A DNA stretch of 35,681 nt from Caldisericaceae bacterium (GTDB lineage Bacteria; Calditrichota; Calditrichia; Calditrichales; Calditrichaceae). A program made the translations under genes and the position numbers. The DNA lies in contig JAGHBR010000181.1 of assembly GCA_021160885.1 (NCBI GenBank), forward strand, positions 1 through 35,681, given 5' to 3'. A model generated the notes under the pieces. The model was not told the DNA's origin and did not search any database. It saw only the letters and a list, made by a program, of their open reading frames with translations. Below are positions 2,742 to 33,173 of this stretch, piece by piece. Within the stretch, counting starts at the first letter, position 1; each line of letters starts with the position of its first letter.

Positions 2742-4058
2742 CTAAAATCGATTGATGAGATCAACTGGACTGAAATTCTGCTGTAAATCCAATAATTCGT
2801 CACTAATTTTTTGCAGGCGTTTGTACAAAGCCTGTTCATAAATTTGATCAACCATGCCGATTATTTTTTCTGCATCCAGGTTCAGGTCAAATCCGGCCAT
2901 CATGGAATAAACGCCAAAGGGCCAGGAAAAAATCAATTCTTTCATCTTTCCCTTAAATGGCAATACAAGATCGCCAATTTGAAGTTCCTGTAACCGTCTG
3001 CCATTCCCCTCCTGTTCAGAATGAAAGGGAATGACAATTGATGGTTTACCAGTTAGCAAAACCTCCATCATGGAGCCATAACCACCGTGGTGAATCACCA
3101 GATCGCTTTTACGAATGGCTGAAAGACCATCTACCCAATCCACAAAAAGAACATTGGTTGACCGACCGTTTAGACTTTTAGCCGGTACTAGACCACCAGT
3201 AGAAACCAGTACTCTGAAATCACGCCTGTCAAAAACATTCAGGATGGCTTCAAAAAACTGTTGCTGTCCAAAACGATTAGCCCCACCGCCTGCTGTTACA
3301 TAAATGTTTGGAACATCAGCCGGATGCTCAAAAAATGGAATTCGATGATCAACTACGGAATTTTCAGTCAAAGGGCCACAATGGAGAACATATTTTTTAT
3401 CATTGTCCAATGGTTCAATTTTTTGAGAAGCAGGAATTAAATAAAGATCGCCGCGCAACAAGTCTTCCGCTTTTTGCACATCGCTAATAGCCAGTTTTTC
3501 CAACAGATGTTCAAATGGTTCCACAGCGTGGGGTTCCACCATTTTGGGCGGTTGTTCCATCCACCAGAAAAACTGCGGATCAGGTGGGAATCCGGCCAAT
3601 CGTGTAATTTGCACAACGGGCAATGAAAATTTTTTGCCGAGCAAATAGGTTAAAAAATGCGTATCCCCAATTAAAAGATCGGGTTTAAATTGTTCTACAA
3701 TTTTATTTAATTTTTTAAAACGGCGGTTTACAATAGATCTGGATAGGTATTGATCGCGCGGCACCTGATAAGCAAGTCCGGAAAACATGAGAAAAACCGG
3801 CATTTTTTCCGGAGGATCAATCATTTTAATGCGCGGCCAAAAGGGCTTTTTAAACTGGAATTTAAAAAACTTTTCCTTTCTGGTATCCAGTAAAAAAGTA
3901 TTAATACCGGCTTCAATACCTTCCTGATAATGTTTGTTTTCTAATACAAGTGCAACCTGAGCTCCGGCTGCTCTCAATTTTTTAGCCAGATAAATGCAGC
4001 GGCTCACGTGTCCGCGTCCGCCACCATGATCGCTGGGAAGTAGCAAAATACGTTTCAT
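2742..4058 (-). CDS. GT-B glycosyltransferase, GT1/GT28 (MGT/UDP-glycosyltransferase-like)
   Basis: N-terminal GGGRGHVSRCIYLAKKL and C-terminal DWVD...DLVIHHGGYGSMMEVLLTGKPSIVIPFHSEQEGNG (UDP-sugar binding signature). The ATG at 4058 is preferred to the TTG at 4070 because it follows the upstream stop and a GAGG. Confidence 0.85.
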   Translation of the reverse strand: MKRILLLPSDHGGGRGHVSRCIYLAKKLRAAGAQVALVLENKHYQEGIEAGINTFLLDTRKEKFFKFQFKKPFWPRIKMIDPPEKMPVFLMFSGLAYQVPRDQYLSRSIVNRRFKKLNKIVEQFKPDLLIGDTHFLTYLLGKKFSLPVVQITRLAGFPPDPQFFWWMEQPPKMVEPHAVEPFEHLLEKLAISDVQKAEDLLRGDLYLIPASQKIEPLDNDKKYVLHCGPLTENSVVDHRIPFFEHPADVPNIYVTAGGGANRFGQQQFFEAILNVFDRRDFRVLVSTGGLVPAKSLNGRSTNVLFVDWVDGLSAIRKSDLVIHHGGYGSMMEVLLTGKPSIVIPFHSEQEGNGRRLQELQIGDLVLPFKGKMKELIFSWPFGVYSMMAGFDLNLDAEKIIGMVDQIYEQALYKRLQKISDELLDLQQNFSPVDLINRF

Positions 4059-4059
4059 G

Positions 4060-6540
4060 CTACTGTACAACCTCTTTCAATATCTCAACTGTACCCGTTT
4101 GACCGTTCACTTTAATCCATTGTCCTGTTCTAATTTTTAACGTGGCATCCTTTACAGCCGCAACCATGGGAATGCTAAATTCTCTGGCAATAATGGCCCC
4201 ATGCGAAAGCGCGCCACCGATTTCAGTTACAATTCCTCCGGCCATAGCCATTAATGGCGTCCAGCCTGGATTGGTTGCCCTGGTAATTAAAATGTCGCCA
4301 GGCATGAATTGATTGCTCTGCGTTTGTGCGTCTAAAACTACACAGGCCCGGCCTTCGGCAATTCCGGCGCTGCAGGGTAACCCAACCAATGCATGGCCAC
4401 TTTTTTCTTCCTCAAAAACAGGCAGCCATTTCTGTCCAATTTGCTTAATTCTAAATGGCTGGGGCTCTCGTAAATATTTTTCTCGTTCTGCTTTTCTTTG
4501 TTTAACTAAAAACAAAACATCCTCTTTTTGCAACTTATTGGCAAAAATTTGTCGTAGTTCTTCAATCCGAACAAAGAAGATATCTTCTTTGTTATCAAGA
4601 TATTGGAAGCTGATTAAAATTAATTGCTGTCTTAAAAAATCCAGCCACTTAAGAATTTTTTGTTTAAGAGATTCACGGTAAAAACTAAAATATTCTGCTT
4701 TATTAAGCAAGTGATTAAACAAAAATTTTCTAACTTTTTTACCATCTTTTTCTAATTCTTGTTGAAAAATTTTGATCATCTTTCGGCGGTCAGCCTCTGT
4801 TTGCTTGTATTGTTTATTCATCGAATAATAACCATCTGCAGCGGAAACGTAGCTTTTTAAAGTATTAAAGATGTAATTCAAATCTTCGCGCCAACGCGGA
4901 TAGCTTATCTCGAACTCATGTAAAGCAGCATAACCAAACCCTTCTATGAACAAGTTGAGTTCTTTTTTCAAAACATCAGTCTCTGGTAAATTCTGCCACC
5001 AGGTCATCAACTCGTCTGCTTCTTTAGTAATAAAAATGTTTCGGTAACGTTCATTCTCGCTAATCCAATGGGCAATTTCCCACAGAGCCAGAGTTGGTTT
5101 TACGCTTTCTACCTGTCCAATGCCCTGCAGTAACTTACTGGCATCAACTTCTTTGTTTTTGAAAGTTTCATGGCAAAATTTATCTAATAACTGATAGTAA
5201 AGTTCAGCCAGAATAGTTGCGCTCACATGAATTTTCATAAGTGTGTTTAATATTTTAATGATCTGTCTCAAACTTTGGCCGGGTTTTAATGACTTTTGTG
5301 TTTGTCTGAACTCTCTAAATTTTTTTTCTTGCCAGTTTAAAACCTTTTGAATTTTCCCTGGTAATTGGCGGCTAAAATTAAGCAGGCGCGCCAGCAGCCA
5401 GCCAAATTTTAAAGCACTTAGCCCGTTTTGCCATTTGCTTCGTCCTTTAATCAGGTAATTGCTCAGGTAAAAACTGTTAATCAGCTTTTGATAAGCATTA
5501 TGGTTAAAATAAACCAAACCATGATAAACTGTAAAAAGCCGTTTTTCCGCTAATCGAATACCTGCTCTTTTTAAAAAGAAATGATAAGCGTTGTTGGTCA
5601 TTGGTTCCAGAATGCTCCAGCTAAAAGGCGTTACAACGTCCGGAATGACCTCACCCACATTTTCACGAGTCCAGAGAATGGTGTTTTTTAAGGTTGTCAC
5701 CGGTCTGAATTGCAGAAAATAAAATTGCTGATTAGCATAAGCCCACTCCACATCCACCGCCTCACCGGCCAGCTTTTCCAGGCGTAGTATTTCTTCAACA
5801 AAACCATTTAAATTTTTTACAGAAAAGTTCTCTGGCAAAAAGTCATCCCTCTTAAGCGGGTCAATTTTTAATTGCTGAGGCGTAACCTGACCGCTGACTA
5901 ACTGTTCGCCCAGGCCCTGGACATACTCAATAATCAATTCATTATTGCCCGTAGGCTCCGGATTTCCGGAAAAGGCTACGCCGGCAAATTCTGCCGCCAA
6001 CATTTCCTGCAAAATGACAGCCATCCCCAATTCAGGAAAGTTCAGCTGGTGTTTTAAGATGTACTGCCAGCCGCCCGGTTCAAATATTGAAGCCCATACT
6101 TTTTTAATGGCCGTCCAGATTGCCGTAACTTCAATTGGAACGTTTAAAACCGTGCTAAATTGACCGGCGTAGGAGTGTGTCTGGCTATCTTCACTGAGAG
6201 CAGAAGAACGCACTGCAAGATAACTGATTCCTCTTGCCTGCCATTGCTCAATTAGTCCTTCGAGTTCAGCTTTTAAATCAAACTCCAATTCCAAGGTAAG
6301 AATATGGTTCTGAATTTTTTGCAGTAATTCTTGTAAGTCTGCGCTCTTATTTAACCAATTAGCTTTAAGTGTTTTCAGTTCGGGCAGCCGGACAATTTTT
6401 CGTTCAAAAGCAGAAGCACACAAAACTTTGGTAAGCGGTACATTAAATCCCCAGTTTAATAAACGGTTTAGATTCACCGCTTTAGCGCCAAATTCCCGTA
6501 CCGATTTGACTTGCTTAAGGTCAAAAATTTTTCTACTCAT
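4060..6540 (-). CDS. PEP-utilizing family enzyme with RPH/PigC architecture: PPDK-type ATP-grasp, central substrate domain, C-terminal phospho-His swivel domain
   Basis: GAKAVNL, AVRSSALSEDSQTHSYAGQFSTVLNV, MAVILQEM, GLGEQLVSG and DVEWA...LQFRPVT mark the ATP-grasp. The central region has WTRENVGEVIPDVVTP and PRWRED. The C-terminus has TNPGWTPLM...EIGGALSHGAIIAREFSIP with the phosphorylatable His. There is no pyruvate-binding TIM barrel. Confidence 0.9.
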   Translation of the reverse strand: MSRKIFDLKQVKSVREFGAKAVNLNRLLNWGFNVPLTKVLCASAFERKIVRLPELKTLKANWLNKSADLQELLQKIQNHILTLELEFDLKAELEGLIEQWQARGISYLAVRSSALSEDSQTHSYAGQFSTVLNVPIEVTAIWTAIKKVWASIFEPGGWQYILKHQLNFPELGMAVILQEMLAAEFAGVAFSGNPEPTGNNELIIEYVQGLGEQLVSGQVTPQQLKIDPLKRDDFLPENFSVKNLNGFVEEILRLEKLAGEAVDVEWAYANQQFYFLQFRPVTTLKNTILWTRENVGEVIPDVVTPFSWSILEPMTNNAYHFFLKRAGIRLAEKRLFTVYHGLVYFNHNAYQKLINSFYLSNYLIKGRSKWQNGLSALKFGWLLARLLNFSRQLPGKIQKVLNWQEKKFREFRQTQKSLKPGQSLRQIIKILNTLMKIHVSATILAELYYQLLDKFCHETFKNKEVDASKLLQGIGQVESVKPTLALWEIAHWISENERYRNIFITKEADELMTWWQNLPETDVLKKELNLFIEGFGYAALHEFEISYPRWREDLNYIFNTLKSYVSAADGYYSMNKQYKQTEADRRKMIKIFQQELEKDGKKVRKFLFNHLLNKAEYFSFYRESLKQKILKWLDFLRQQLILISFQYLDNKEDIFFVRIEELRQIFANKLQKEDVLFLVKQRKAEREKYLREPQPFRIKQIGQKWLPVFEEEKSGHALVGLPCSAGIAEGRACVVLDAQTQSNQFMPGDILITRATNPGWTPLMAMAGGIVTEIGGALSHGAIIAREFSIPMVAAVKDATLKIRTGQWIKVNGQTGTVEILKEVVQ

Positions 6541-7492
6541 TTAAGAACATCTCTTCGCCAAAAATTTCTACTTTTTCTCTGGTTTTAGTAGTAGCTAACC
6601 AGCGTTTACGGAAATATTGTCCATTGGTTAGCCATCCAGCAAGCCATTTCAATGATTTCTTTTGCACGGCAATTCCAGCCATCACTTCAATGATCTTCAT
6701 CGGTAAAGAAAAGATTCCAGGTGCAGTTGACACCATAAAACGTAAATCATCGATGATTTTTACTTCATTTAGAAAAAAATCAAATTGTCCCAAAACGCCG
6801 TTAATAGATATGTTCTGAGAACTAAAATCAATCTTTGCTTTTTCATCCACAGCGATGCTTTCTTTCCCGCATTTGACTAAAATATTGGAAAACCTTCCTT
6901 TCGCATCTTTAACTTTTCCAGCAATGATTAATTCATCATGCCATTTGATTTTAGCCCACAACCAGTAAGCCAGCTCCTTTTTCAAATTAATATTGCCACT
7001 GTTTGAATCCAGATATCCCATTCCATCGATGGTCGTATGATTAATTTCCTTTTCACCAGTTCCGGAATAGGTCATTTTTCCTGCGGCTCTGGCCAACGGC
7101 ATGAACAATTTCCATTGAAACGATTTGTTTGATTCTTCTTTAAATAATTCCAGATTTAATGGCAAACCTTCAACTTTTGGATGCTTTAACTCCAGTTGAA
7201 TCTGCACCTGCCCGGAAACAAATTCAAGAAATGCTTGCTGATCTTTAATTTCAAATCTTAATCTCAGATTAGTTTGTACTTCAATCAGAAAAGGGCTCGG
7301 GCGTTGAATGGCATCTTGCGGAATCACAAAAAAACGATGAAAAACTGGTTGATTCTGATAATAAACAAAGACATCAAAAATACAGATTTTAAATTGAGAC
7401 ATGAAAGGATGGGTGTGTAAGCTGAGAACAAGATCATAACCATCTCTTTGGTGCACATCAATGTAAAACCATTCGAAAAATAGCTGATTCAT
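6533..7492 (-). CDS. CrtC/AttH-fold protein (carotenoid 1,2-hydratase / tocopherol cyclase / kievitone hydratase-like)
   Basis: N-terminal FEWFYIDV (EWWYxD motif), FQWKLFMPLARA (compare HxW...P.ARV in CrtC), GMGYLDSNSG (compare G.aYLDSNxG) and a downstream WLW. Assignment is from remembered motifs only. Confidence 0.7.
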   Translation of the reverse strand: MNQLFFEWFYIDVHQRDGYDLVLSLHTHPFMSQFKICIFDVFVYYQNQPVFHRFFVIPQDAIQRPSPFLIEVQTNLRLRFEIKDQQAFLEFVSGQVQIQLELKHPKVEGLPLNLELFKEESNKSFQWKLFMPLARAAGKMTYSGTGEKEINHTTIDGMGYLDSNSGNINLKKELAYWLWAKIKWHDELIIAGKVKDAKGRFSNILVKCGKESIAVDEKAKIDFSSQNISINGVLGQFDFFLNEVKIIDDLRFMVSTAPGIFSLPMKIIEVMAGIAVQKKSLKWLAGWLTNGQYFRKRWLATTKTREKVEIFGEEMFLNE

Positions 7493-7513
7493 TGCAATCC
7501 TTTTAAAATTAAT

Positions 7514-7924
7514 TTACCTAGAAACAGGAATTTTGGTTTTGATTTTTTTCAGCCACCACCAGCCCAGCCAGGCTCCCAGAACATAGTAAATAAAATCACT
7601 CCAGACAAACGTTGTGCCCAGCACAACCTTTCCCAAATAAAAAGAACGCAACCAGGTCAAAAAGGGCGGATGCCAGAGCTGTGCAAATTCCAGCAAACTG
7701 GTAATCAGGAGAACTGTAACGGCGATGGATTTTTCTGACCACTGTAGATTAATAAAGGCGGCTATCATGCACCAGAAGGTAACATAAAGCAGGCCGCCCA
7801 GGGAATCATTTACCCAATGGGCCAGCGGGCCCTGGTAGGCTTTGGTTAAAAATCCAATGGGCGTAATAACCAAAACAGATAGACCCAGGGCAAATCGAAT
7901 TTTTAAAAGTGAATTACTCAACAT
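7514..7924 (-). CDS. DUF2809-type small membrane protein
   Basis: Hydrophobic helices with WVNDSLGGLLY, LEFAQLWHPPFLTWLR and GKVVLGTTFVWSDFIYY. The ATG at 7924 overlaps the upstream stop and is preferred to 7954. Confidence 0.75.
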   Translation of the reverse strand: MLSNSLLKIRFALGLSVLVITPIGFLTKAYQGPLAHWVNDSLGGLLYVTFWCMIAAFINLQWSEKSIAVTVLLITSLLEFAQLWHPPFLTWLRSFYLGKVVLGTTFVWSDFIYYVLGAWLGWWWLKKIKTKIPVSR

Positions 7925-8639
7925 TCTGAAAAAATTCAAAATATTTTTGTGCAATAGAATGAAATGGGCTACGCAGAACTAACATTTTGGCGTTTTCTTT
8001 GTACTTTTTGCGCATCTCATCCGGATACATGCTTTTTTGCCATTGACCTTTAAAAAACTGATCGTTAACCTGATTAAGCCGAGCAAAAATTTCGGCTTCT
8101 TTTTCGGCCTGGTTTCCTAAACAATTGAATTCAGCGCCAAATTTGCGGTTCACTTTTTGTATCAACACATCAAACTGCTGCACAATGGTTTCAAATGGCA
8201 CCACCACCAGAGACGTATGTACCTTTTTTAAAACTTTGTAAAAACGAATGTAAGCTTTTAAGTACAGGTCTGCATTCTGGGAACTTTGAAACACCATGAA
8301 AGAGGAAACGGCTTCAAGAGGAGCTCTGATTAAAAAAACGGCCGGGATATTCCATTTAACCGCTTGTAAAAGTTGAGCTGGTACATGTAAGTGGTGCGCA
8401 ATCTTCACATCGGGATTGGCCAGGCGAAAGGCAACAACCGCGTAAGAATTTGCAGAACGCGGAAACCCCTCAATGCAAATACCGGAATCCGGTTCAATTT
8501 TCATCCGATTAAACGGGTATCTTCGGGCAAAAAGTTTAAAATAGAAGGATGGAAATTGTCCTGCAAGACTTTGTAAATAGTAGAAAAAATCATTTCGGTT
8601 CAAGAGCGTTGATTCCTTTTTAAACAGCATCCTACCCAT
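7914..8639 (-). CDS. Sulfotransferase-like (PAPS-binding P-loop) protein
   Basis: ICIEGFPRSANSY resembles the 5'-PSB loop, FLIRAPLEAVSSF resembles the 3'-PB motif, and VVVPFET follows. The 35 extra N-terminal codons in the ORF track come from a MITE, so the start is placed at ATG 8639 (or 8630). Confidence 0.65.
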   Translation of the reverse strand: MGRMLFKKESTLLNRNDFFYYLQSLAGQFPSFYFKLFARRYPFNRMKIEPDSGICIEGFPRSANSYAVVAFRLANPDVKIAHHLHVPAQLLQAVKWNIPAVFLIRAPLEAVSSFMVFQSSQNADLYLKAYIRFYKVLKKVHTSLVVVPFETIVQQFDVLIQKVNRKFGAEFNCLGNQAEKEAEIFARLNQVNDQFFKGQWQKSMYPDEMRKKYKENAKMLVLRSPFHSIAQKYFEFFQNVE

Positions 8640-8645
8640 TAATTT

Positions 8646-8742
8646 GAAACCTTTGAAAAAATCGGGGGCTCTCCAAACCTGGCAACTTAGGGATTCCCGC
8701 TTGCGCGGGAATGACATTCTTAGTGATTTTTTCAAAGGTTTC
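8646..8742. mobile_element. 97-bp MITE with 18-bp perfect TIRs, 5-bp target duplication and an internal ATTCCC-N8-GGGAAT palindrome
   Basis: GAAACCTTTGAAAAAATC (8646-8663) and GATTTTTTCAAAGGTTTC (8725-8742) are exact reverse complements. AATTT is directly repeated at 8641-8645 and 8743-8747. The core attccc-gcttgcgc-gggaat is at 8693-8712. Confidence 0.85.
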
Positions 8743-8790
8743 AATTTATCAATTGTGCAATTGACTCTTTTTCAGGTTCATAAAACAGAG

Positions 8791-11004
8791 TTAGCGTAAT
8801 AAGGTCATTTTTCCTATCAGCTGATGTTTCCCGGCTTTAATTCGGTAAAAATAGATTCCGGAGCTTTGCAATTTACCATGCGCATCCCGGGCATCCCAGG
8901 TCAAAGTTTGCATGCCTTGTGCTAACTTCCCACGTAAAAGAGTCCGAATTTTTTTGCCGTTTAGATTAAATATTTCAACCGTAACTTGCTGTGGCCTGGC
9001 CAAAAAGAATTTGATTGTTGTATTTGGATTGAATGGATTTGGATAATTGGTTAATAGTTTAATATCCGTTACTGTTTTTGTGCTCGGATTTTGAACAGTT
9101 GTTGTTTTTAATAACTCAACCGTTCCATCCAAACTGACCAGGTACAATCGGTACCATAAATACGCCTCTTGTGTTGTAAGCGTGTCTGTATAAAAATATT
9201 CATGAAAAGCCGGACTGCTTCCGGCGGCTGAAATTAAGCTTTTGTTTATCTTTTTAAATTCAGAATTGACCGGCAAAATACTGTCCTCACCTTCTGCGCG
9301 GAACAAATTAAAACCAAGTGTGTTGACTTCGCTTTCCGTTTTCCAGCTTAAATTTACCCTGTTTTTTTCGCTTCTGGCGGTAAAACTAGCCAGAGTGACT
9401 GGCAACGAGTAATCGCCGTTCTCTGCAAAAACCAACACACGGTAAACCGTGGGCGTTTCGTTGGCATAAAGTTTAAGCGTGTGGCCACCACCCGCAACCG
9501 TATCTTTAATGAGTACTGTTTTTACATCACCATGCAAGGCATTGCCTACAAAGCCTTTATCGCTCCCCCAACCAAAATCCGTATTATCTAATTCAATTCG
9601 CAATTCATCGTCATCAGTACTGTCAATATTGGCATTTTTGTGATCCCAGCCAGGTTCATGATCTGCACTGGCGCTAACGTAAATAGCTATGGGACCAGCA
9701 TCACAATTGAATGAAAATTGTTTCCACAAATAATTATCGCTTCCGGAAGGCGCTGTTTCGTTCAGCGTTTGGTCCAAAACCAGCGATCCCTCAAAAGAGT
9801 TTAAAACATTCACGTCGTAAAGGATCGGCGTGGTCTGGCTGTACAGCTTAATGGTATGATTGCCGGCCGCAAGAAGAGGCGTAAATACAAGCGTTTTTGG
9901 CAATCCATCATCCACATCACCGTTCCAGCTATTTAGATTGTCGTAACCATAATCCGTGGCATCAACCACCACTTTCAGATCATCGTCTCCGTCATAACCG
10001 TCATAGGTTTCTGCTTTAGCCGTAATTATAACAAAAGTATTCCCGGTGTTGGTGTCAAAGGAATAGGTTTTCCACAAGCCATCGCTCACGCCATCATCTA
10101 TTTCGCTTTCATAATTTCGTAAACGCAAAAAATCAGAAGCATCTACCGGAGATACCGAATAACTGGGGTCATAGCCATCTTTACGAATTTCCACAAAATC
10201 CACGATAAAACTACTCGTTCCCAGCCAGCCGTTGTAAAACACTTCAATGGTATCTGGCAAACTTTGCGGTGTACGATCAATAAAGTGATAAACCAAATTG
10301 TCATTCCAGCAATGGAATTCATAATCTCTGGTAATGATACTCGCTGGTGTAAAATCAGAAGGGGTAATTCTTTGAATCAAAGTACCATCCACGTAATGTT
10401 CATAATAACCAGTGCTGGTTCCACCTGAATATCTAACCACCCGATACGTATGCCACTGAGTATTGTCAATTGTTGACAAATTCGTGTACTTATCATTTTG
10501 ATCGTTCACACCGTTTACGGTTCGGGCCCGCCACCAGGTTTCATCGGCAGCCCACGAAGAATCATGATAGGCCGTTTGTTCAATAAACCAGACACTTTGA
10601 TTTATGGTAATCGGCAATTTTTCAGAACGCCAGGTGCCCCATCCTCTACTACCAACTGGCAAACTATTTAATGTTTTAATTCTTATTTTAGCTTCCAGAA
10701 CCATTGATTTATCATAAATCTGGTATGTGGTTGAGGCAAACCCGATATTCTCCATACCATCACTACCCACCAATCTTCCACCAGGTTGGCCGTCTAAAGG
10801 ATCAACTAAATCGGCCTTTAGATAGCCGTTATTAATTGTTAATTGATGTTGTGAACCGGAACTGGGAGAAATATTAATCTTCCACCAACTATTAAGAGAG
10901 GTTCCTGTAAAATCATCGCGCTGTAAATCCGGGACAATGTAAGTTTGTCCCAAAACAGCTTGCAGCAATAAAAAGAGGATTAGGCCCAATCTCTTAATAA
11001 ACAT
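8791..11004 (-). CDS. Secreted protein: ConA/GH16-like beta-sandwich, two Asp-rich repeats, LPVTL domain and T9SS-type/FlgD-Ig C-terminal sorting domain (paralog A)
   Basis: Signal peptide MFIKRLGLILFLLLQAVLG|Q. Motifs GSRGWGTW, WHTYR and FHCWNDN. DYSLPVTLASFTAR...LSWKTESEVNTLGFNLFR, then NYPNPFNPNTTIKF...SSGIYFYRI...KMTLLR. Confidence 0.85.
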   Translation of the reverse strand: MFIKRLGLILFLLLQAVLGQTYIVPDLQRDDFTGTSLNSWWKINISPSSGSQHQLTINNGYLKADLVDPLDGQPGGRLVGSDGMENIGFASTTYQIYDKSMVLEAKIRIKTLNSLPVGSRGWGTWRSEKLPITINQSVWFIEQTAYHDSSWAADETWWRARTVNGVNDQNDKYTNLSTIDNTQWHTYRVVRYSGGTSTGYYEHYVDGTLIQRITPSDFTPASIITRDYEFHCWNDNLVYHFIDRTPQSLPDTIEVFYNGWLGTSSFIVDFVEIRKDGYDPSYSVSPVDASDFLRLRNYESEIDDGVSDGLWKTYSFDTNTGNTFVIITAKAETYDGYDGDDDLKVVVDATDYGYDNLNSWNGDVDDGLPKTLVFTPLLAAGNHTIKLYSQTTPILYDVNVLNSFEGSLVLDQTLNETAPSGSDNYLWKQFSFNCDAGPIAIYVSASADHEPGWDHKNANIDSTDDDELRIELDNTDFGWGSDKGFVGNALHGDVKTVLIKDTVAGGGHTLKLYANETPTVYRVLVFAENGDYSLPVTLASFTARSEKNRVNLSWKTESEVNTLGFNLFRAEGEDSILPVNSEFKKINKSLISAAGSSPAFHEYFYTDTLTTQEAYLWYRLYLVSLDGTVELLKTTTVQNPSTKTVTDIKLLTNYPNPFNPNTTIKFFLARPQQVTVEIFNLNGKKIRTLLRGKLAQGMQTLTWDARDAHGKLQSSGIYFYRIKAGKHQLIGKMTLLR

Positions 11005-11016
11005 GCCTGCTACTCT

Positions 11017-12876
11017 CTATTTTAATAAGATAATCTTTCGTATTTTTTCTTGATTTTTGAATTTTAATCTACAGAAATAAATGCCTGAGGCAAGCCGACT
11101 ATCGGCGTTCCATTTTACTTTATAACTGCCGGCTGCTAACTGTTTATTAAGCAAATTTTCTACCAGTCGACCATTCACATCCAGAATTTGCAATACAACC
11201 TGGCCGGAATGAGGAATTTCAAAGGGAATGGTCGTTGAAGGATTAAATGGATTGGGATAATTAGCCGCCAGCTGGAATTGCTTAACAGGATTGTTCTTAA
11301 CCACCTTAATAGTACTGGCATTTTCTTTATTTTCTACATAAACCACCACATTGTAAACCGTTGGCGTCTCATTGGCATACAATTTTAGTGTGTGTGTTCC
11401 AGCCGGTAAATCTTGCATGATTAAAATCGTCTTGCTGTCACCAAAGAGTCGGTTTCCCATCATGGCGCTATCGGCGCCCCAGCCATAATCGAAATCATCA
11501 ATCATGATGCGCAGTTCATCATCATCGGTACTGTCAATGTTGAAATTCAGGTAATCCCAACCTGATTCTTCATCTGCGCTGCCACTGAGGTAAACGGCAA
11601 CCATACCGGAATCACAGTTAAAAGTAAAAGTCTTCCATAAATAATTATTACTGCCCGAGGGCGCTGTTTCATTCAGTTGTTGGTTAATTACCAATTCACC
11701 ATTGGCAGATTCTAAAACCGTGGCGTCGTAAAGAACGGGCGTGGATTCACTGTAAAAACTTAACTGATGGCTACCAGCGGTTAGAACAGTGTCAATAATA
11801 ATTGTTTTCGGGGAACCATTGTCGGTGTCGCCATCCCAGCTACGCGTTGTGTTGTAGCCAAAATCTTTGCTATCCAGAACCATTTTCAAATCATCGTCAT
11901 CATCGTAACTACCCAGATTCTCCGCTTTAGCTGTTGCCAAAATCACGCATCGACCGCCACTAACCGTAAAATTAAAAGGACCTTTCCACAGGCCGTCTGT
12001 CACGCCATTATCAATTTCGTTAATGACTTCACGCAGCCGAACCGGCCCCTGAGGTGTTACAGAATGACCATAATGGTACTTGCCTTTCATTATCTCCACA
12101 AAATCCACAATGAATGTACAGGTACCAAGCCAGCCATTGTAATAAACCTCAATGGTGTCCTGACCGGAATAGGCATTTTGCGTATGGTGGTAAACCAGGT
12201 TATCATTCCAGCAATTAAAGCCATAATCTTCATTTAAAATATCACCTAAATCATCTGGCGTGGCATGAACCAGCGGTGTCGGATCATCATCAACATACAA
12301 TTCGTAAAATTCTCTACCCTGCCGATAAATGCGATAATAATGCCATTCTTGAGGCGAAACAGGAGGCACAACCTTTACTTCATTAGACTCCGAAACTCCG
12401 CGTGATATTCTGCCGTACCACCAGTTTTCTGAATCGGCCCAGGGGTAAGACGTATCGGTCACCTGTTCCATGAACCATGAAGCCTGATTAATCTTAATTG
12501 GCACGGCCTCGGAATGCCATAAGCCATAGCCTCTGCTACCGGGCAACAATGGTGTTAAATACTTGATCCGGATGCGCACATCAATCGTATCATCTTTACT
12601 GTACACCATCATGGTGTAAGCGGTACTGAAGCCAATATTCTCCATGCCTGTTCCATCAAATTGTAAAGATCCGCCTGCCCCGCCATTCAAGGCATTTGAT
12701 AAATTGGCTAAAAAGTAACCATTAGAAAGCTCCCAGGAATGATTAATGCCCCAGATATTAATCGACCACCAGCTCTTTAAATTTTTAAAATCATCCCGTT
12801 GCAGATTCGGCACAATATAGGTCTGACCATGTAAAAATGAAATAATACTGATTAAAATTAACCACTTGCGCATCAT
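11017..12876 (-). CDS. Secreted protein: beta-sandwich, two Asp-rich repeats and T9SS-type C-terminal sorting domain (paralog B)
   Basis: Signal peptide followed by QTYIVPNLQRDDF (paralog A has QTYIVPDLQRDDF). Shares GMENIGF, GSRG[WY]G.W, CWNDNLVYH, DTIEV.YNGWLGT, NIDSTDDDELRI and HTLKLYANETPTVY with A. Ends NYPNPFNPSTTIPF...ASGIYFCRL...KIILLK. Confidence 0.85.
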   Translation of the reverse strand: MMRKWLILISIISFLHGQTYIVPNLQRDDFKNLKSWWSINIWGINHSWELSNGYFLANLSNALNGGAGGSLQFDGTGMENIGFSTAYTMMVYSKDDTIDVRIRIKYLTPLLPGSRGYGLWHSEAVPIKINQASWFMEQVTDTSYPWADSENWWYGRISRGVSESNEVKVVPPVSPQEWHYYRIYRQGREFYELYVDDDPTPLVHATPDDLGDILNEDYGFNCWNDNLVYHHTQNAYSGQDTIEVYYNGWLGTCTFIVDFVEIMKGKYHYGHSVTPQGPVRLREVINEIDNGVTDGLWKGPFNFTVSGGRCVILATAKAENLGSYDDDDDLKMVLDSKDFGYNTTRSWDGDTDNGSPKTIIIDTVLTAGSHQLSFYSESTPVLYDATVLESANGELVINQQLNETAPSGSNNYLWKTFTFNCDSGMVAVYLSGSADEESGWDYLNFNIDSTDDDELRIMIDDFDYGWGADSAMMGNRLFGDSKTILIMQDLPAGTHTLKLYANETPTVYNVVVYVENKENASTIKVVKNNPVKQFQLAANYPNPFNPSTTIPFEIPHSGQVVLQILDVNGRLVENLLNKQLAAGSYKVKWNADSRLASGIYFCRLKFKNQEKIRKIILLK

Positions 12877-13913
12877 TAACTCCTAAGTTTTTGCAATAAA
12901 AATTTCATTGCAAAATTTTCAGTTAAAATTTTAACCGAATATAAACGTCGGATTAAGATTTGAAAAAGCAAAAGTATTGCAAATGGTAAATAGTAAAAAA
13001 CTAATATCAAATTTAAAAATATTGGCAACCCAACTGAAGGATAAGCATGATGCAGAAATTGATTAAGGCTTCTCTCTTCAGCATGAAACGGATTTACACG
13101 CCATTGACGTTTGTCAACTAAAAACCAGCCAAGCCCCACAAAGTAAATAGCAGCCGTAATCCAACACAACCATTTTGCGATAAATCGATCAAAATTTACA
13201 CTAAACAAAATCTGTAGCAGAACAACAGCCAGTAATAATTTTTCAAGTTGTAAACTGATAAAAAATAAATTTTGCACATGCCGAAAGCCCTTACTTACCG
13301 CAAATGTTTGTGTACCTGTTTTTAAATCGTTCTCATAATCTTCCAACTGGTGATTGACATCCGAAGAGAGACCACGTAAAAACACATAAGCCAAAAGGCT
13401 AATAAGGAAAGGCACATGCCAAAAATTAAAAACGGAAAAAAGAATCAAAACGGGTAATAAGCGTTGAGCCAGCACCACAAAAATAATATTGGCTGTGCCA
13501 CGCTCTTTTAAGCGAATGGGAGGTAAACTGTAAAAGCTTGTGATTAAAAACCAGAGCAAAGTCAACCCTACAAAATATGGACGATCCCAAAAGGGAAGGC
13601 TGGTTAATAAAGCTAAAAGAAAGATCAACGCCACAACCAATACAGCTTTGGTCTTTGAATCTTTTTCAAACGTATTGGATTTACCATGTTGCCGATCGAG
13701 TTCCATGTCCGAGTAATCATTAACTAAATAACCGTAAGTTGTGGCAAATATGCTGAACAAAATAAAAAGCAAACTGTCTTTTAAAAATACTAAATCCCTT
13801 TTCTGGTCCACCAGCGCAATCAAAAACAAAATAAAGAAATTTTCAAAAACCGAATTGTAGCGGAAAACGGCCCAATTACGCCAGCCCATGTATTTGTTAA
13901 TCCAATGAAACAT
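12876..13913 (-). CDS. UbiA-superfamily intramembrane prenyltransferase
   Basis: Multi-pass membrane protein. First Asp motif YGYLVNDYSDMELDRQHGK (NDxxDxxxD), YSLPPIRLKERG loop, second motif NHQLEDYENDLKTGTQTFAV. Confidence 0.88.
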   Translation of the reverse strand: MFHWINKYMGWRNWAVFRYNSVFENFFILFLIALVDQKRDLVFLKDSLLFILFSIFATTYGYLVNDYSDMELDRQHGKSNTFEKDSKTKAVLVVALIFLLALLTSLPFWDRPYFVGLTLLWFLITSFYSLPPIRLKERGTANIIFVVLAQRLLPVLILFSVFNFWHVPFLISLLAYVFLRGLSSDVNHQLEDYENDLKTGTQTFAVSKGFRHVQNLFFISLQLEKLLLAVVLLQILFSVNFDRFIAKWLCWITAAIYFVGLGWFLVDKRQWRVNPFHAEERSLNQFLHHAYPSVGLPIFLNLILVFYYLPFAILLLFQILIRRLYSVKILTENFAMKFLLQKLRS

Positions 13914-14126
13914 CTGAAGCCCTGCTAATATATTTTTCCTTTTCTAAAATAATGTGGCTAACAAAGAAAGACTTTGCTTTTTATCACGAGTTTAAAAAAA
14001 TTTTAATTTGCAACTCAAAGTAATGCTTTAAAAGCTCAACATGCTTAAGTTTGCAAAGGTTTAGAATTTGAGTTCTGAATTACATGTTTTGAACTTAAAA
14101 TATAAATAAACATGATAGGCCTTTGG

Positions 14127-14231
14127 TAAATAGTTGAATAGTTGAATGGTTAAATGGTTGAATGGACTCATGATATTAATAATTTCTGAGTAAGTTCATT
14201 CAACATTTAACATTCAAAATTCAAAATTCTT
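14127..14231. repeat. 8-mer (TGAATRGT) array facing a 7-mer (ATTCAAM) array, together forming a long imperfect palindrome
   Basis: taaatagt tgaatagt tgaatggt taaatggt tgaatgga, then attcaac atttaac attcaaa attcaaa. The reverse complement of ttgaatggttaaatggttgaatg (cattcaaccatttaaccattcaa) matches cattcaac-atttaac-attcaa, and there is an inner actca/tgagt stem. Confidence 0.75.
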
Positions 14232-14267
14232 TGATAGAGCTGCGGCCTGGTTATATTGGAATTTTAT

Positions 14268-15764
14268 CTATTTAAACCGGAAGAGTATTAAACGATGTAA
14301 AAGTGGTTTTCCTTCACTCTTCAACTTGAGCTGAAGGCGCCTGGCATTTGTTTCGAACTCAAATAATTTTGTGTGCGCCTGCCCAAAGATGCGATTCCCA
14401 CAAAACTCCAGCGTTTTAATCTGATTCCCTGATTGGTCACTTAATACAAGCTGCAAATCATCATCTTCATCTGCAAGAACCGAAATTGGCGTTATTTGAT
14501 TAAATCGGGGCGCTTCTTTAAGCGTGGCTGCCAGGTAAAGCAGAAACTTGCCTTTCTGTTCTAAATCGATTTGATATTCAACCATTTTGTCCACAAGTAG
14601 AATGTTTTGTTTGTCAAGCAAAATCTCACTTTCATCGCCATTGATTAAAAGGATATCATTTACTACCGGACTCGTTTGCCCTCTTACGGTTAATTGGTGT
14701 TTGCCTGGTGCAAGCTCCAGAGAAAACAAACTCGTCTTGCTTAAATTGTGCGTGTCATTTCCTTTTAAAACAATCTCCTCTGCAGCATTGTCATCAAAAT
14801 AAAAGAACAATGCATCCTGTTCATCGTAGTTACTGTAATTTTCAAGGCATGTTGTTAGTATAGCGTAAACCTTTTGTCCTTTTAAATTAAAAGGGATTTG
14901 AGCAATCGTAAATTTCCCCTGTCCATAAAAAACATCATTCCATGTACGATAAGCCAAAATGGCCTGATTTTTACTTTGAAAAATCTCCGCTTTTGCTAAG
15001 GCGCTTGTATTGATTTTGACGTAATCAACCAGCATGGCGCTTTCCCCTGTCCAGGCCATACGTAAAATGCCATTTTTTGAATAGACCTGGTTGTCAATCC
15101 ACAGGTGAAAAGACAATCTTCCAGCAGGCGTCAGTCCAGGAGTTTTTAAAATCAACTGGTCGTCAACCCAAAAAAAAGTAATTTTATTAACCAAATCGCG
15201 TTCAATGCGGTACACATGCCAGCGATTTAAATCGGGTTGCCACTTAACGGTTTGACGTCGATTTTTTACAACGGTGCCTGCCAATTGCCAGGAAAATTGT
15301 GGTGCATTTGGAGCCAACTGTTCCATGAACCAGGCCAGAGAATGAATTTTAGCCTTTTTCCTGCTTTTCCACAATCCCCAGCCTCTGCTGCCGGCCTGCA
15401 TGGGATTTAGTAATTTAATTCTTGCTTCGGTGACCAGCTTTTTAACTGATTTTCCGTAAATATTCTGAAATTCAGAAATACCAACATTACACTCCAGATT
15501 TTGCACTGGATTTTTCAGAGAAATACGTAAATAACCTTTTCCATTTACAATGGCCAGTTCATCCTGCGCGGCAGTTCCGTCACGATGGTAATCCCACCAA
15601 CCGTGAATTTGGTTAAAGTCGTCGAATTTTACAGATAAAATCTGAGACTGGCTTTTAAGAGAGGCAAAACCGCAAGCAACTAAAAAAGCGCCTAAAACTA
15701 AAACAGACCTGCAGTTTACAGGCCCATTTAAATTAAAATGCAATTTGTAGAACCTACCGAACAC
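14268..15764 (-). CDS. Exported, possibly lipoprotein, divergent paralog C of the beta-sandwich plus duplicated Asp-rich module family, lacking the C-terminal sorting domain
   Basis: GSRGWGLW, AWFMEQ, WHVYRI, FHLWIDNQVY, VDYVKI, ENYSNYDEQDAL, GKHQLTV...SPV and DEDDDLQL...GNRIFG...T all align by eye with paralogs A and B. A hydrophobic stretch ends in LVAC. The GTG start at 15764 is uncertain. Confidence 0.8.
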   Translation of the reverse strand: MFGRFYKLHFNLNGPVNCRSVLVLGAFLVACGFASLKSQSQILSVKFDDFNQIHGWWDYHRDGTAAQDELAIVNGKGYLRISLKNPVQNLECNVGISEFQNIYGKSVKKLVTEARIKLLNPMQAGSRGWGLWKSRKKAKIHSLAWFMEQLAPNAPQFSWQLAGTVVKNRRQTVKWQPDLNRWHVYRIERDLVNKITFFWVDDQLILKTPGLTPAGRLSFHLWIDNQVYSKNGILRMAWTGESAMLVDYVKINTSALAKAEIFQSKNQAILAYRTWNDVFYGQGKFTIAQIPFNLKGQKVYAILTTCLENYSNYDEQDALFFYFDDNAAEEIVLKGNDTHNLSKTSLFSLELAPGKHQLTVRGQTSPVVNDILLINGDESEILLDKQNILLVDKMVEYQIDLEQKGKFLLYLAATLKEAPRFNQITPISVLADEDDDLQLVLSDQSGNQIKTLEFCGNRIFGQAHTKLFEFETNARRLQLKLKSEGKPLLHRLILFRFK

Positions 15765-16614
15765 GTTGAATCAGATATTCGCTTAATTCTCTTAAACCGG
15801 CGGCCCTTTCGCCAAAAATATTGAGAGCTTTTTCCGCTTTCTGGTGGTATTCCTGCAAATATTTTTTGGCTTCTTCCATTCCTACCAACTTGACAAAGTT
15901 CATGCGGTCATGTTCAAGATTTTTACCAACAACTTTTTCCTCGCCAATCATATCCAACATATCATCCACAATCTGGAAAGCAAAACCAATGTCGTCCGAA
16001 AAATCCTGAATGGCTTTGGTTTGCTTTTCATCGGCATGACCAATGATGGCCGCAATTTTACCGGCGGCAGAAAAAAGAGCGGCTGTTTTCTTTTGATTGA
16101 TGAATTCAATGATTTCAAAATTAACGTGTTTGTCTTTGATTTTAAGATCCACAAACTGCCCGGCGGCCAATCCATTAAAGCCAAAAGAAGCGCTAAGCAC
16201 CTGCCCCACTTTCAATCGTTCTTCAGGAGTCAAATTTTCGTCAGACAGAACCAGTTGCATACCTTCAGAGATCAATCCGATACTGGCCAAAAGGGCTACA
16301 TCCTGCCCAAAAACTACATGGTTGGCCGGTTTTCCGCGACGTAATTGCGAATCATCCATGTAAGGCAGGTCATCCATTATCAACGAAGCAGCATGAATCA
16401 GTTCAATAGCGCAAGCTGGCTGAATCAAGCGTTCTTCCGGCACATCAAATAATTCACCCGTAAAAAACACAAAAATAGCCCGTATTCGTTTACCACCTGC
16501 TGCCGAATAAGCGGCCGATTTATAAAGCGCTTCAATAAGCGGGTTGTCATTCTGTAATCGCTTATCAATTTCATCATCGATTAAGCGCTTAATATGTTGC
16601 ATTTTCTCTTTCAT
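15754..16614 (-). CDS. crtE: Short-chain trans-isoprenyl diphosphate synthase, CrtE/type II GGPP synthase-like
   Basis: GGKRIR, FARM HAASLIMDDLPYMDDSQLRRGKP, GQFVD, KT and SARM FQIVDDMLD. Ala and Ser at -5/-4 before the FARM, plus the two-residue insertion, fit a GGPP synthase better than IspA (HAYSLIHDD). Confidence 0.88.
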   Translation of the reverse strand: MKEKMQHIKRLIDDEIDKRLQNDNPLIEALYKSAAYSAAGGKRIRAIFVFFTGELFDVPEERLIQPACAIELIHAASLIMDDLPYMDDSQLRRGKPANHVVFGQDVALLASIGLISEGMQLVLSDENLTPEERLKVGQVLSASFGFNGLAAGQFVDLKIKDKHVNFEIIEFINQKKTAALFSAAGKIAAIIGHADEKQTKAIQDFSDDIGFAFQIVDDMLDMIGEEKVVGKNLEHDRMNFVKLVGMEEAKKYLQEYHQKAEKALNIFGERAAGLRELSEYLIQRVR

Positions 16615-26424: not shown

Positions 26425-26504
26425 AAGTTTCTGCGATTCCTGATTTTATTAACTTCTGCCAACCATTCCCTTACTTAAAAGCAATTGTAATGCCAGAGTT
26501 CCTT

Positions 26505-28752: not shown

Positions 28753-28773
28753 GACGATATCCCTTTCTGTTTA

Positions 28774-32123: not shown

Positions 32124-32129
32124 TTTCCT

Positions 32130-33164: not shown

Positions 33165-33173
33165 CCTGCTTAC

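What the first reader, a model, noticed from the sequence alone, without database searches (positions are those of the whole stretch)
2742..16614. Candidate undescribed isoprenoid (phospho)glycolipid or meroterpenoid pathway embedded in a surface-glycan operon
Seen in the sequence: one co-oriented block encodes a CrtE-type GGPP synthase (15754-16614), a UbiA prenyltransferase (12876-13913), a CrtC/AttH-fold protein (6533-7492), an RPH/PigC-type phospho-His enzyme (4060-6540), a GT1/GT28 glycosyltransferase (2742-4058) and a sulfotransferase-like protein. The hydratase, kinase and GT genes are translationally coupled, and the GGPP synthase starts 3 nt after a GT-C stop. Established: these families respectively make a C20 prenyl donor, transfer prenyl groups to an acceptor in the membrane, hydrate or cyclise prenyl groups, activate or phosphorylate small molecules with ATP, and glycosylate lipophilic acceptors. 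Carotenoid synthesis would also need CrtB/CrtI and archaeal-type ether lipids would need GGGP synthase; neither is in the window. Inference: the set reads as a prenylate, hydrate/cyclise, phosphorylate, glycosylate route to an unknown geranylgeranyl glycoconjugate. This could be the lipid anchor or primer of the glycan made by the upstream genes. I do not recognise this combination from any described pathway.
Basis: partly seen in the sequence, partly recalled or inferred. Interest (0 to 1): 0.88.

Follow-up and report, generated by a model that had tools for sequence, protein, structure and literature searches.

The report
Conserved isoprenoid glycolipid cassette in Calditrichota
This is a conserved, co-inherited block of genes inside a surface-sugar operon of Calditrichota and a few other bacteria that likely builds an undescribed cell-surface glycolipid on a 20-carbon isoprenoid tail, which would be a membrane anchor chemistry we did not find described for bacteria.

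Summary
All five occur in 27 of 41 Calditrichia genomes (same order on one contig in 16). UbiA, kinase and AttH genes are all missing from 11. The cassette recurs in Syntrophorhabdus, another Desulfobacterota genome and metagenomes, often with IDI, DXS or geranylgeranyl-reductase-family genes. It is larger than reported: SDR, methyltransferase, GT2s, GT-C, secreted GH16/GH26-like proteins and Wzx travel with it. The UbiA passes no characterised-family cut-off and has its own HQxxDxxxD motif. The AttH-fold protein keeps CrtC's acid Tyr-x-Asp but lacks its essential His; outside Calditrichia its slot often holds a lycopene-cyclase/GGR-like flavoprotein instead. The kinase keeps RPH's catalytic residues. 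A carotenoid glycoside is rejected: no crtI in 24 of 30 carriers. An archaeal-type ether lipid is disfavoured but open: the genome has an unlinked GGGP synthase, not found in four non-Calditrichia carriers. Best reading: prenylate, protonate (cyclise or hydrate), phosphorylate, glycosylate, flip, giving a C20-isoprenoid surface glycolipid. The acceptor and product are inferred, not shown.

The parts
15754..16614 (-). Short-chain trans-prenyl diphosphate synthase, likely GGPP (C20); first Asp-rich motif HAASLIMDDLPYMD
   Evidence: PF00348 E=1e-47; FPPsyn 244/275 bits, CrtE 205/460; Ala76/Ser77 invariant in 13 of 13; C20 rule recalled
12876..13913 (-). UbiA-family prenyltransferase of an uncharacterised clade; motifs NDxxDxxxD and HQxxDxxxD
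   Evidence: PF01040; no NCBIfam cut-off reached, best PRK12875 48/205 bits; motifs
6533..7492 (-). AttH/CrtC-fold acid catalyst (Trp127, Tyr160, Asp162 kept; Phe125 in place of CrtC His239)
   Evidence: PMC4717167 passages
4060..6540 (-). RPH/PigC-type small-molecule dikinase (Lys20, Arg111, Arg622, Glu623, Lys626, His780)
   Evidence: PMC4844700 passages
2742..4058 (-). GT1 (MGT/YjiC-like) glycosyltransferase for a lipophilic acceptor
7514..7954 (-). DUF2809 membrane protein (optional member, 7 of 21 loci; start uncertain)
7914..8636 (-). Sulfotransferase-like protein (optional member; start uncertain, ORF open to 8744)
   Evidence: weak
8791..11004 (-). Secreted GH16/ConA-fold protein with FlgD/T9SS-type C-terminal domain
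11017..12876 (-). Second secreted GH16/ConA-fold paralogue with FlgD/T9SS-type domain
14268..15764 (-). Third GH16/ConA-fold paralogue, without sorting domain
   Evidence: model pLDDT 87.8; Foldseek best hits GH16 glucanases
16618..18255 (-). GT-C (PMT_2-like) membrane glycosyltransferase
   Evidence: in 16 of 21 loci
18215..19966 (-). Two-domain GT2; N-terminal domain resembles polyprenol-phosphate sugar synthases
   Evidence: AglJ, ArnC, PpgS-type hits below cut-off
19959..20855 (-). GT2 (MftF-like), core member across phyla
20857..21732 (-). Class I SAM methyltransferase, core member (42-53% identity across phyla)
21722..22672 (-). Extended SDR (NDP-sugar epimerase/reductase-like), core member
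22669..23643 (-). Polysaccharide-deacetylase-like protein at the upstream edge in Calditrichia
   Evidence: orthologue hits PF01522 weakly
23908..35664 (-). Upstream glycan block (heparinase-like x2, GT4s, APH-like kinase, deacetylase); continues into Wzx/Wzy in relatives

Best explanation
The cassette is a co-inherited pathway that likely makes a cell-surface glycolipid with a C20 isoprenoid tail: its prenyl synthase is predicted to supply GGPP, its UbiA likely transfers the chain to a small polar acceptor, and the AttH-fold enzyme, the dikinase and the glycosyltransferases would then modify, phosphorylate and glycosylate it for export. Step 1 (family shown, chain length inferred): GGPP. Step 2 (family shown, acceptor inferred): the HQxxDxxxD-clade UbiA ionises GGPP and links it to a hydroxyl, most likely of a sugar or polyol, because the cassette carries sugar-tailoring genes and no recognisable aromatic-precursor genes. 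Step 3 (fold and acid residue shown, outcome inferred): Asp162 of the AttH protein protonates an isolated prenyl double bond; I put ring closure slightly ahead of hydration (about 50:35, rest phosphate elimination). GGR-family flavoproteins, where present, would saturate the chain. Step 4 (catalytic residues shown, substrate inferred): the dikinase moves the ATP beta-phosphate via His780 to a hydroxyl of this lipid. Step 5 (inferred): GT1 adds the first sugar, two GT2s extend, SDR/methyltransferase/radical-SAM/sulfotransferase-like enzymes tailor the sugars, Wzx flips the product, GT-C adds sugars outside from a polyprenyl-phosphate donor made by the DPM-like GT2 domain, and secreted GH16- or GH26-like proteins trim or transfer the glycan.
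For: All five genes in 27 of 41 Calditrichia genomes, UbiA+kinase+AttH all missing in 11, partial in 3 drafts; same order on one contig in 16 of 27; AttH directly before the kinase in 27 of 29. Same cassette in Syntrophorhabdus, another Desulfobacterota genome and metagenome contigs, with IDI (TIGR02150 above cut-off), a DXS-like gene and GGR-like genes added. Two GGR-family genes follow the cassette in several Calditrichia and exist on C217 of this genome. AttH fold and Tyr-x-Asp kept in 49 of 50 close homologues. RPH catalytic set invariant in 16 of 16. Wzx, GT-C and GT2s persist across phyla although GT-C and hydrolase subfamilies are swapped. Four of four distant HQ-motif UbiAs on plasmids lie among glycosyltransferases, three with Wzm/Wzt exporters, one with a polyprenyl synthase.
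Against: No biochemical or expression data. No gene identifies the acceptor. The flavoprotein that replaces AttH is ambiguous: best Pfam hit lycopene cyclase in the member tabulated, matched by 9 of 9, but NCBIfam prefers the GGR superfamily (84 vs 62 bits, both under cut-off) and PDB hits are GGRs and halogenases, so it may be an alternative, not an equivalent. Syntrophorhabdus aromaticivorans (G042) has the UbiA and glycan genes but no orthologous kinase, AttH or flavoprotein, so steps 3-4 are separable. Of three further distant UbiAs, one lies by a GT4 and two by radical-SAM genes; none is a clear glycan-export locus. GGGP synthase is present in 37 of 41 Calditrichia. Kin are not independent.
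Confidence: 0.55

Rival explanations
1. The cassette makes a private short lipid carrier, a dolichol-phosphate analogue: UbiA releases or builds a C20 alcohol, AttH or a flavoprotein removes the allylic double bond, the dikinase phosphorylates it, the DPM-like GT2 loads a sugar and GT-C uses it as donor. The lipid is recycled, not a final anchor.
For: DPM-like GT2 domain and GT-C flank the GGPPS. AttH and the flavoprotein alternate next to the kinase. PMC2443190 proposes, untested there, that the swivel-domain protein Rv2047c phosphorylates a lipid that Ppm1 then mannosylates (one passage).
Against: GT1 enzymes of this type glycosylate free hydroxyls of lipophilic acceptors (nearest structures YjiC, CalG2, OleI), which a carrier phosphate does not need. 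A UbiA acting as a plain hydrolase has no precedent that I tested.
Confidence: 0.15
2. Meroterpenoid route: UbiA C-prenylates a phenol or hydroquinone, the AttH protein closes a chromanol ring as tocopherol cyclase does, the methyltransferase methylates, and the free phenol is phosphorylated or glycosylated.
For: Closest folds to the AttH model are ring-forming pericyclases (Z 22.6-23.5). RPH-family kinases phosphorylate phenols (PMC12167813 passages). UbiA shows weak HPT similarity (30 bits). A distant clade member in Novosphingobium has a neighbour with a DxDD motif.
Against: No aromatic-precursor gene was recognised in any cassette examined. HPT cut-off 226 is far from met. The Novosphingobium ORF has no Pfam, NCBIfam or PDB hit.
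Confidence: 0.15
3. Archaeal-type ether lipid: the UbiA adds a second geranylgeranyl chain to GGGP from the unlinked GGGP synthase, and the cassette hydrates, reduces and glycosylates the diether.
For: GGGP synthase above cut-off (TIGR01769 210/162 bits) and GGR-family genes in this genome. FCB-group bacteria can make archaeol (PMC7852524 passages).
Against: The UbiA scores 18-22 bits against DGGGPS models (cut-offs 296, 353), while another UbiA of the genome (C499, partial) scores 107. GGGPS occurs in Calditrichia with and without the cassette and was not found in 4 of 4 non-Calditrichia carriers (completeness not given).
Confidence: 0.1
4. Ordinary carotenoid glycoside (C40/C50): CrtE, a LyeJ/CrtEb-type elongase, a CrtC hydratase and a CrtX-type GT acting with crtB/crtI elsewhere.
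For: Best NCBIfam hit of the UbiA is PRK12875, which I recall as LyeJ-like. CrtI-like and lycopene-cyclase-like flavoproteins occur in non-Calditrichia cassettes.
Against: crtI above cut-off in only 6 of 30 carriers, against 9 of 11 non-carriers; not found in this genome or in the closed genome G004. The only SQS/PSY gene here is squalene-synthase-like (152 bits vs 58 for CrtB). PRK12875 score 48 of 205.
Confidence: 0.03

Closest known systems
Carotenoid glycoside pathways (CrtE, CrtC, CrtX, LyeJ/CrtEb)
   Same: GGPP synthase, AttH-fold acid catalyst with Tyr-x-Asp, GT1, a UbiA, nearby idi/dxs
   Different: No crtB/crtI in most carriers; CrtC His239 replaced; adds a dikinase, Wzx, GT-C and secreted hydrolases
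Merosterol pathway (MstD prenyltransferase recalled; MstE cyclase, PMC12324236 passages)
   Same: Prenylate with C20, then protonation-started ring closure
   Different: No class II cyclase or aromatic-precursor gene in the cassette; glycan export machinery present
Archaeal-type ether lipid genes of FCB bacteria (PMC7852524)
   Same: GGPP, UbiA-family O-prenylation, GGR tailoring; GGGPS in the genome
   Different: This UbiA is not DGGGPS-like by profile score; GGGPS unlinked and not found in non-Calditrichia carriers
RPH/PigC/HpeHI small-molecule dikinases (PMC4844700, PMC12167813)
   Same: Domain order and all catalytic residues tested
   Different: Below every equivalog cut-off; embedded in an isoprenoid-glycan cassette, not resistance or catabolism
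25-hydroxysteroid kinase / 25-phosphosteroid lyase (PMC8449060; PDB 9FZN)
   Same: A kinase working with an AttH-fold enzyme on an isoprenoid side chain (Z 17.1)
   Different: 25-HSK is a 40-kDa phosphotransferase, not RPH-type; catabolic; genes not adjacent there
Mycobacterial mannosyl-phosphomycoketide locus (Rv2047c-pks12-ppm1, PMC2443190)
   Same: Lipid-chain synthase, swivel-domain protein and polyprenol-P-sugar synthase in one locus
   Different: Polyketide, not isoprenoid; Rv2047c role only proposed in the passage read
Bacteriohopanepolyol tailoring cassette (HpnA, B, H, I, J, K; roles recalled)
   Same: SDR, GT2, radical SAM, B12 radical SAM and deacetylase around a terpenoid core (weak HpnA, HpnH, HpnJ hits)
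   Different: No squalene-hopene cyclase found in the genome; all hits under cut-off

Membership tests
CrtE-type GGPP synthase | Two Asp-rich motifs; small residues 4-5 positions before the first (rule recalled) | tested here: met
   HAASLIMDD with Ala76/Ser77 invariant in 13 of 13
CrtE-type GGPP synthase | NCBIfam cut-off NF045685 (460) or FPPsyn (275) | tested here: not met
   205 and 244 bits
CrtE-type GGPP synthase | C20 product | not testable with these tools
   needs assay
UbiA superfamily | PF01040 gathering score; NDxxDxxxD motif | tested here: met
   65.9 vs 34.2 bits; motif
DGGGP synthase | Profile score NF009521/NF009522 | tested here: not met
   18 of 296 and 22 of 353 bits
DGGGP synthase | GGGP synthase in the same genome | tested here: inconclusive
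   present here and in 37 of 41 Calditrichia; not found in 4 of 4 other carriers
LyeJ/CrtEb lycopene elongase (PRK12875, PRK13595; identity of models recalled) | Profile cut-off | tested here: not met
   48 of 205 and 22 of 248 bits
Carotenoid glycoside pathway | crtI and crtB in the genome | tested here: not met
   no crtI above cut-off here or in 24 of 30 carriers; SQS/PSY gene is squalene-synthase-like
UbiA-type terpene cyclases (EriG, Fma-TC) | NxxxG/AxxxD and QDxxDxxxD motifs (PMC9835599) | tested here: not met
   NDxxDxxxD and HQxxDxxxD in 19 of 19 clade members
ChlG, HPT, DPPR synthase | Profile cut-offs | tested here: not met
   18-30 bits against 207-474; nearest PDB is ChlG at E=2.6e-7 only
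CrtC carotenoid 1,2-hydratase | AttH double-barrel fold | tested here: met
   Z 18.7 to AttH 2ICH, 18.2 to kievitone hydratase
CrtC carotenoid 1,2-hydratase | Trp241, Tyr266, Asp268 equivalents | tested here: met
   Trp127, Tyr160, Asp162 each in 49 of 50 close homologues; mapped by motif spacing from PMC4717167, not by superposition
CrtC carotenoid 1,2-hydratase | His239 equivalent; NF045922 cut-off | tested here: not met
   Phe in 49 of 50, His in none; 21 of 400 bits
RPH-type dikinase (works like) | ATP-grasp, substrate domain, C-terminal swivel; Lys22, Arg117, Arg666, Glu667, Lys670, His825 equivalents | tested here: met
   Lys20, Arg111, Arg622, Glu623, Lys626, His780 invariant in 16 of 16
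RPH or PigC/RedH equivalogs | Profile cut-offs | tested here: not met
   262 of 999, 307 of 1300, 274 of 1350 bits
25-HSK/25-PSL dehydration pair | Kinase of the 40-kDa phosphotransferase type | tested here: not met
   826-aa RPH type here; PMC8449060 section 4
25-HSK/25-PSL dehydration pair | Lyase active-site residues | not tested
   only fold similarity seen
Hopanoid pathway | Squalene-hopene cyclase | tested here: not met
   0 matches in the 93%-complete genome
Lycopene cyclase (for the substituting flavoprotein) | Family assignment over GGR | tested here: inconclusive
   PF05834 matched by 9 of 9; NCBIfam and PDB lean GGR, no NCBIfam cut-off met

The most novel reading that the evidence does not exclude
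An unrecognised UbiA clade (HQxxDxxxD) builds isoprenoid lipid anchors for bacterial surface glycans. In Calditrichota it works with an acid cyclase and an RPH-type dikinase to make a cyclised, phosphorylated diterpenoid glycolipid that stands in for carotenoids or hopanoids in the membrane and primes a Wzx-exported glycan. Distant members would anchor Wzm/Wzt-exported glycans whose lipid anchor is unknown. This would be a new class of glycan anchor beside lipid A, diacylglycerol and undecaprenol, and a possible source of orphan diterpenoid biomarkers.
Probability: 0.3. Interest if true: 0.88.

Novelty: new variant of a known kind. Interest (0 to 1): 0.68.

Why it matters
It points to a specific, findable envelope lipid in a widespread but poorly studied phylum, with a cultured carrier candidate (the AttH homologue Calab_2328 of Caldithrix abyssi DSM 13497). 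It supplies three enzyme clades with no assigned reaction: a UbiA with its own motif, an AttH-fold acid catalyst lacking CrtC's His, and an RPH-type dikinase in a biosynthetic setting. The natural AttH/flavoprotein swap gives a ready experiment. If the lipid anchors the glycan, it bears on what holds many Wzx- and ABC-exported bacterial glycans in the membrane. The partial anticorrelation with crtI suggests a carotenoid-replacing role and a new isoprenoid biomarker.

Tried and rejected
Ten literature searches returned no paper describing this gene combination or a Calditrichota isoprenoid glycolipid; the library lacks most subscription papers, no supplements were read, and the MstE paper PMC7613056 was not held. 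My recalled idea that 25-HSK is RPH-type was wrong. The UbiA-type diterpene cyclase idea failed the motif test. The claim that the substituting flavoprotein is a lycopene cyclase was downgraded. The UbiA tree (22 rows) has 5 of 19 supported branches and long-branch joins, and holds no characterised reference enzymes; it is not used to place the clade, and one of the five own-genome UbiAs (C423:15297) dropped out of it. Promoter scan was at chance level (34 vs 39.7). No RNA holder listed. Four look-ups of earlier findings returned nothing. The Atlas gave only generic UbiA clusters and did not answer for the sulfotransferase-like protein. The AttH profile found no significant PDB sequence hit. 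The genome contigs and metagenome scans used two strict motifs, so divergent carriers are missed. No complex prediction was run.

Full report
Observation. The window is G000:C248; its nearest named homologues are Calditrichota. The junctions are as claimed: 3 nt between GT-C and GGPPS, an 8-nt overlap of the AttH and kinase genes, 1 nt between kinase and GT1. The sulfotransferase label is weak (3 of 12 orthologues, best E=7.5e-4).

Co-conservation. Each of the five proteins was searched in the same 41 genomes, G000 included. Matches: UbiA 28, kinase 29, AttH 29, GGPPS 31, GT1 30 (one of these a 28% hit). All five occur in 27 of 41. UbiA, kinase and AttH are all missing in 11 (three of these keep a GGPPS hit). 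Three drafts of 72-88% completeness are partial. In 16 of the 27 the five lie on one contig in the order GGPPS-UbiA-AttH-kinase-GT1; the others are split over contigs and G017 is rearranged. AttH is directly upstream of the kinase in 27 of 29. ORF clustering of 21 loci gives the full unit: deacetylase, SDR, methyltransferase, GT2, two-domain GT2, GT-C, GGPPS, secreted protein, UbiA, secreted protein(s), optional DUF2809, AttH, kinase, GT1, optional sulfotransferase-like gene and second methyltransferase, Wzx. Flanks show the upstream GT4/heparinase block adjacent in G004, G006, G018, G022, G025, G030, G035, G036 and G040, reaching Wzy in six of them, and replaced by other genes in G015. Downstream, Wzx, GGR-family flavoproteins, an FG-GAP protein and a radical SAM/SPASM gene follow in G022, G025, G030, G031, G033 and G036. 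This genome holds the two GGR genes on C217 and the upstream Wzx on C251. These genomes are kin, so no statistic is offered.

Beyond Calditrichia. A motif scan of GTDB contigs gave 31 loci, four outside Calditrichota: two Syntrophorhabdus, one other Desulfobacterota, one Aminicenantes. A metagenome scan gave 46 loci. These keep GT2s, SDR, methyltransferase, GT-C, GGPPS, UbiA, a secreted GH26-like or GH16-like protein, kinase, Wzx and GT1, and add radical SAM/SPASM, B12 radical SAM, CrtI-like and GGR-like flavoproteins, IDI and a DXS-like gene (the DXS label is my reading of the sequence). The clade is rare there: 2 of 401 Desulfobacterota genomes and 1 close plus 3 distant of 401 in the phylum of G044. 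Among 12 distinct loci from these scans in which the kinase is visible and which are not the standard Calditrichia type, the cassette holds an AttH orthologue in 4 (L102, L111, L118, L130), a 400-aa flavoprotein in 7 (L064, L075, L097, L103, L113, L124, L138), both in none and neither in 1 (L090, contig ends) (identical duplicates L104, L114, L115 dropped). At genome level the flavoprotein orthologue (over 600 bits) was not found in 41 Calditrichia (best 98 bits) and AttH was not found in G041 or G043. G042 and G044 have the UbiA but no orthologous kinase or flavoprotein; the G044 locus is frameshifted and keeps a short AttH-like fragment.

The enzymes. GGPPS: Ala/Ser before the first Asp motif fits C20 (rule recalled); it scores between FPP and CrtE models. 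UbiA: no characterised model is approached, the nearest solved structure is chlorophyll synthase at E=2.6e-7, and the second motif HQxxDxxxD is shared by 15 cassette members and 4 distant plasmid proteins but not by the two own-genome paralogues long enough to show it. It does not match the cyclase motifs given in PMC9835599 (passages). AttH protein: the model matches pericyclases Fsa2/CghA (Z 23), AttH (18.7), kievitone hydratase (18.2) and 25-phosphosteroid lyase (17.1). PMC4717167 (passages) shows His239, Trp241, Tyr266 and Asp268 are each needed by CrtC, with Asp268 proposed as the acid; PMC12402844 (passages) adds two Trp. Here Trp127, Tyr160, Asp162, Trp177 and Trp179 are kept in 49 of 50 close homologues, while the His position is Phe in 49 of 50. 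So it likely protonates a prenyl alkene but is not a CrtC. Kinase: RPH domain order, with the residues that PMC4844700 (passages) shows to be catalytic all invariant; relatives phosphorylate secondary alcohols and phenols (PMC12167813 passages). GT1: nearest structures are YjiC, CalG2 and OleI.

Mechanism. The cassette carries its own C20 donor, one prenyltransferase, one alkene-acting enzyme coupled to a hydroxyl kinase, a GT for a lipophilic acceptor, and a build-flip-decorate glycan set. The simplest reading is one product, an isoprenoid glycolipid exported to the surface (0.55). Families, catalytic residues and linkage are shown; acceptor, order and product are inferred. I favour a sugar or polyol acceptor because no aromatic-precursor gene was recognised in any locus, and because distant clade members lie among glycosyltransferases in 4 of 4 plasmid hits, three with Wzm/Wzt and one with a polyprenyl synthase. 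Against that generalisation, three distant genome hits were not clear glycan-export loci. Rivals: a private dolichol-phosphate-like carrier (0.15; analogy in one passage of PMC2443190), a chromanol-type meroterpenoid (0.15), an archaeal-type diether (0.10), a carotenoid glycoside (0.03).

crtI was not found in this genome and reaches cut-off in 6 of 30 carriers against 9 of 11 non-carriers. The one SQS/PSY gene is squalene-synthase-like and such genes occur in 40 of 41 genomes regardless of the cassette. No squalene-hopene cyclase was found. GGGP synthase is present and occurs in 37 of 41 Calditrichia, unlinked, but was not found in the four other carriers; a separate, partial DGGGPS-like UbiA exists on C499. 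PMC7852524 (passages) establishes that route in FCB bacteria and does not name Calditrichota in its main text.

Novelty and verdict. Ten literature searches found no description of the combination; for most hits I saw only listings and abstract starts, I read passages of ten papers and one full section, no supplements, and subscription papers are largely outside the library. Each enzyme type has precedent in terpenoid or glycolipid synthesis, so I file it as a new variant of a known kind. The bolder case, a new class of isoprenoid glycan anchor, has probability 0.3. Interest 0.68: real, conserved across phyla, undescribed as far as searched and directly testable, but the product is unknown.

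Noticed in passing
window 26505-27673 (-): A GT4 gene is in two overlapping ORFs (235 + 154 aa); it is a single ORF of about 390 aa in relatives (L045:13102-14274, L175:12107-13282). Frameshift or assembly error.
   Followed up: partly
G000:C204:2171-2920, C499:5637-6064, C217:5622-6824 (L011, L003, L148): The genome encodes a GGGP synthase above cut-off, a partial DGGGPS-like UbiA and GGR-family proteins; GGGPS is in 37 of 41 Calditrichia. Calditrichota may make archaeal-type ether lipids independently of this cassette.
   Followed up: partly
G000:C218:629-1666 (L001): A stand-alone squalene-synthase-like gene, apparently near-universal in Calditrichia, with no squalene-hopene cyclase found in this genome; fate of the product unexplained.
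   Followed up: partly
L144:11765-12895 (-), Novosphingobium plasmid: 376-aa ORF beside the distant UbiA, a sulfotransferase and Wzm/Wzt, with a DVDDT motif and QW-like repeats (motif meaning recalled), no Pfam, NCBIfam or PDB hit; candidate monodomain class II terpene cyclase.
   Followed up: partly
L145:11122-14448, L146:11032-14688: Cyanobacterial plasmid fusions methyltransferase-UbiA-PhyH and PhyH-UbiA-TPR in glycosyltransferase/sulfotransferase loci.
   Followed up: partly
window 7514-7954 (-): DUF2809 is classed as a Lipocone-superfamily enzyme predicted to act on isoprenoid lipid head groups (bioRxiv 10.1101/2025.01.14.632903, passage); optional in the cassette.
   Followed up: no
L106:2497-3630, L081:5134-6300: A second, longer AttH/CrtC-type gene directly follows the UbiA in two loci; L081 has both types.
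   Followed up: partly
L064:17461-18933 and orthologues: A B12-dependent radical SAM protein (weak HpnJ and ladderane-type hits) sits beside the kinase in several non-Calditrichia cassettes; could methylate the lipid or contract a sugar ring.
   Followed up: no
41 Calditrichia genomes: crtI is in 9 of 11 cassette-negative but only 6 of 30 cassette-positive genomes; kin not independent.
   Followed up: partly
window 75-2120 (+): TPR plus GWxTD-domain protein, convergent with the cassette end; same position in G004.
   Followed up: no
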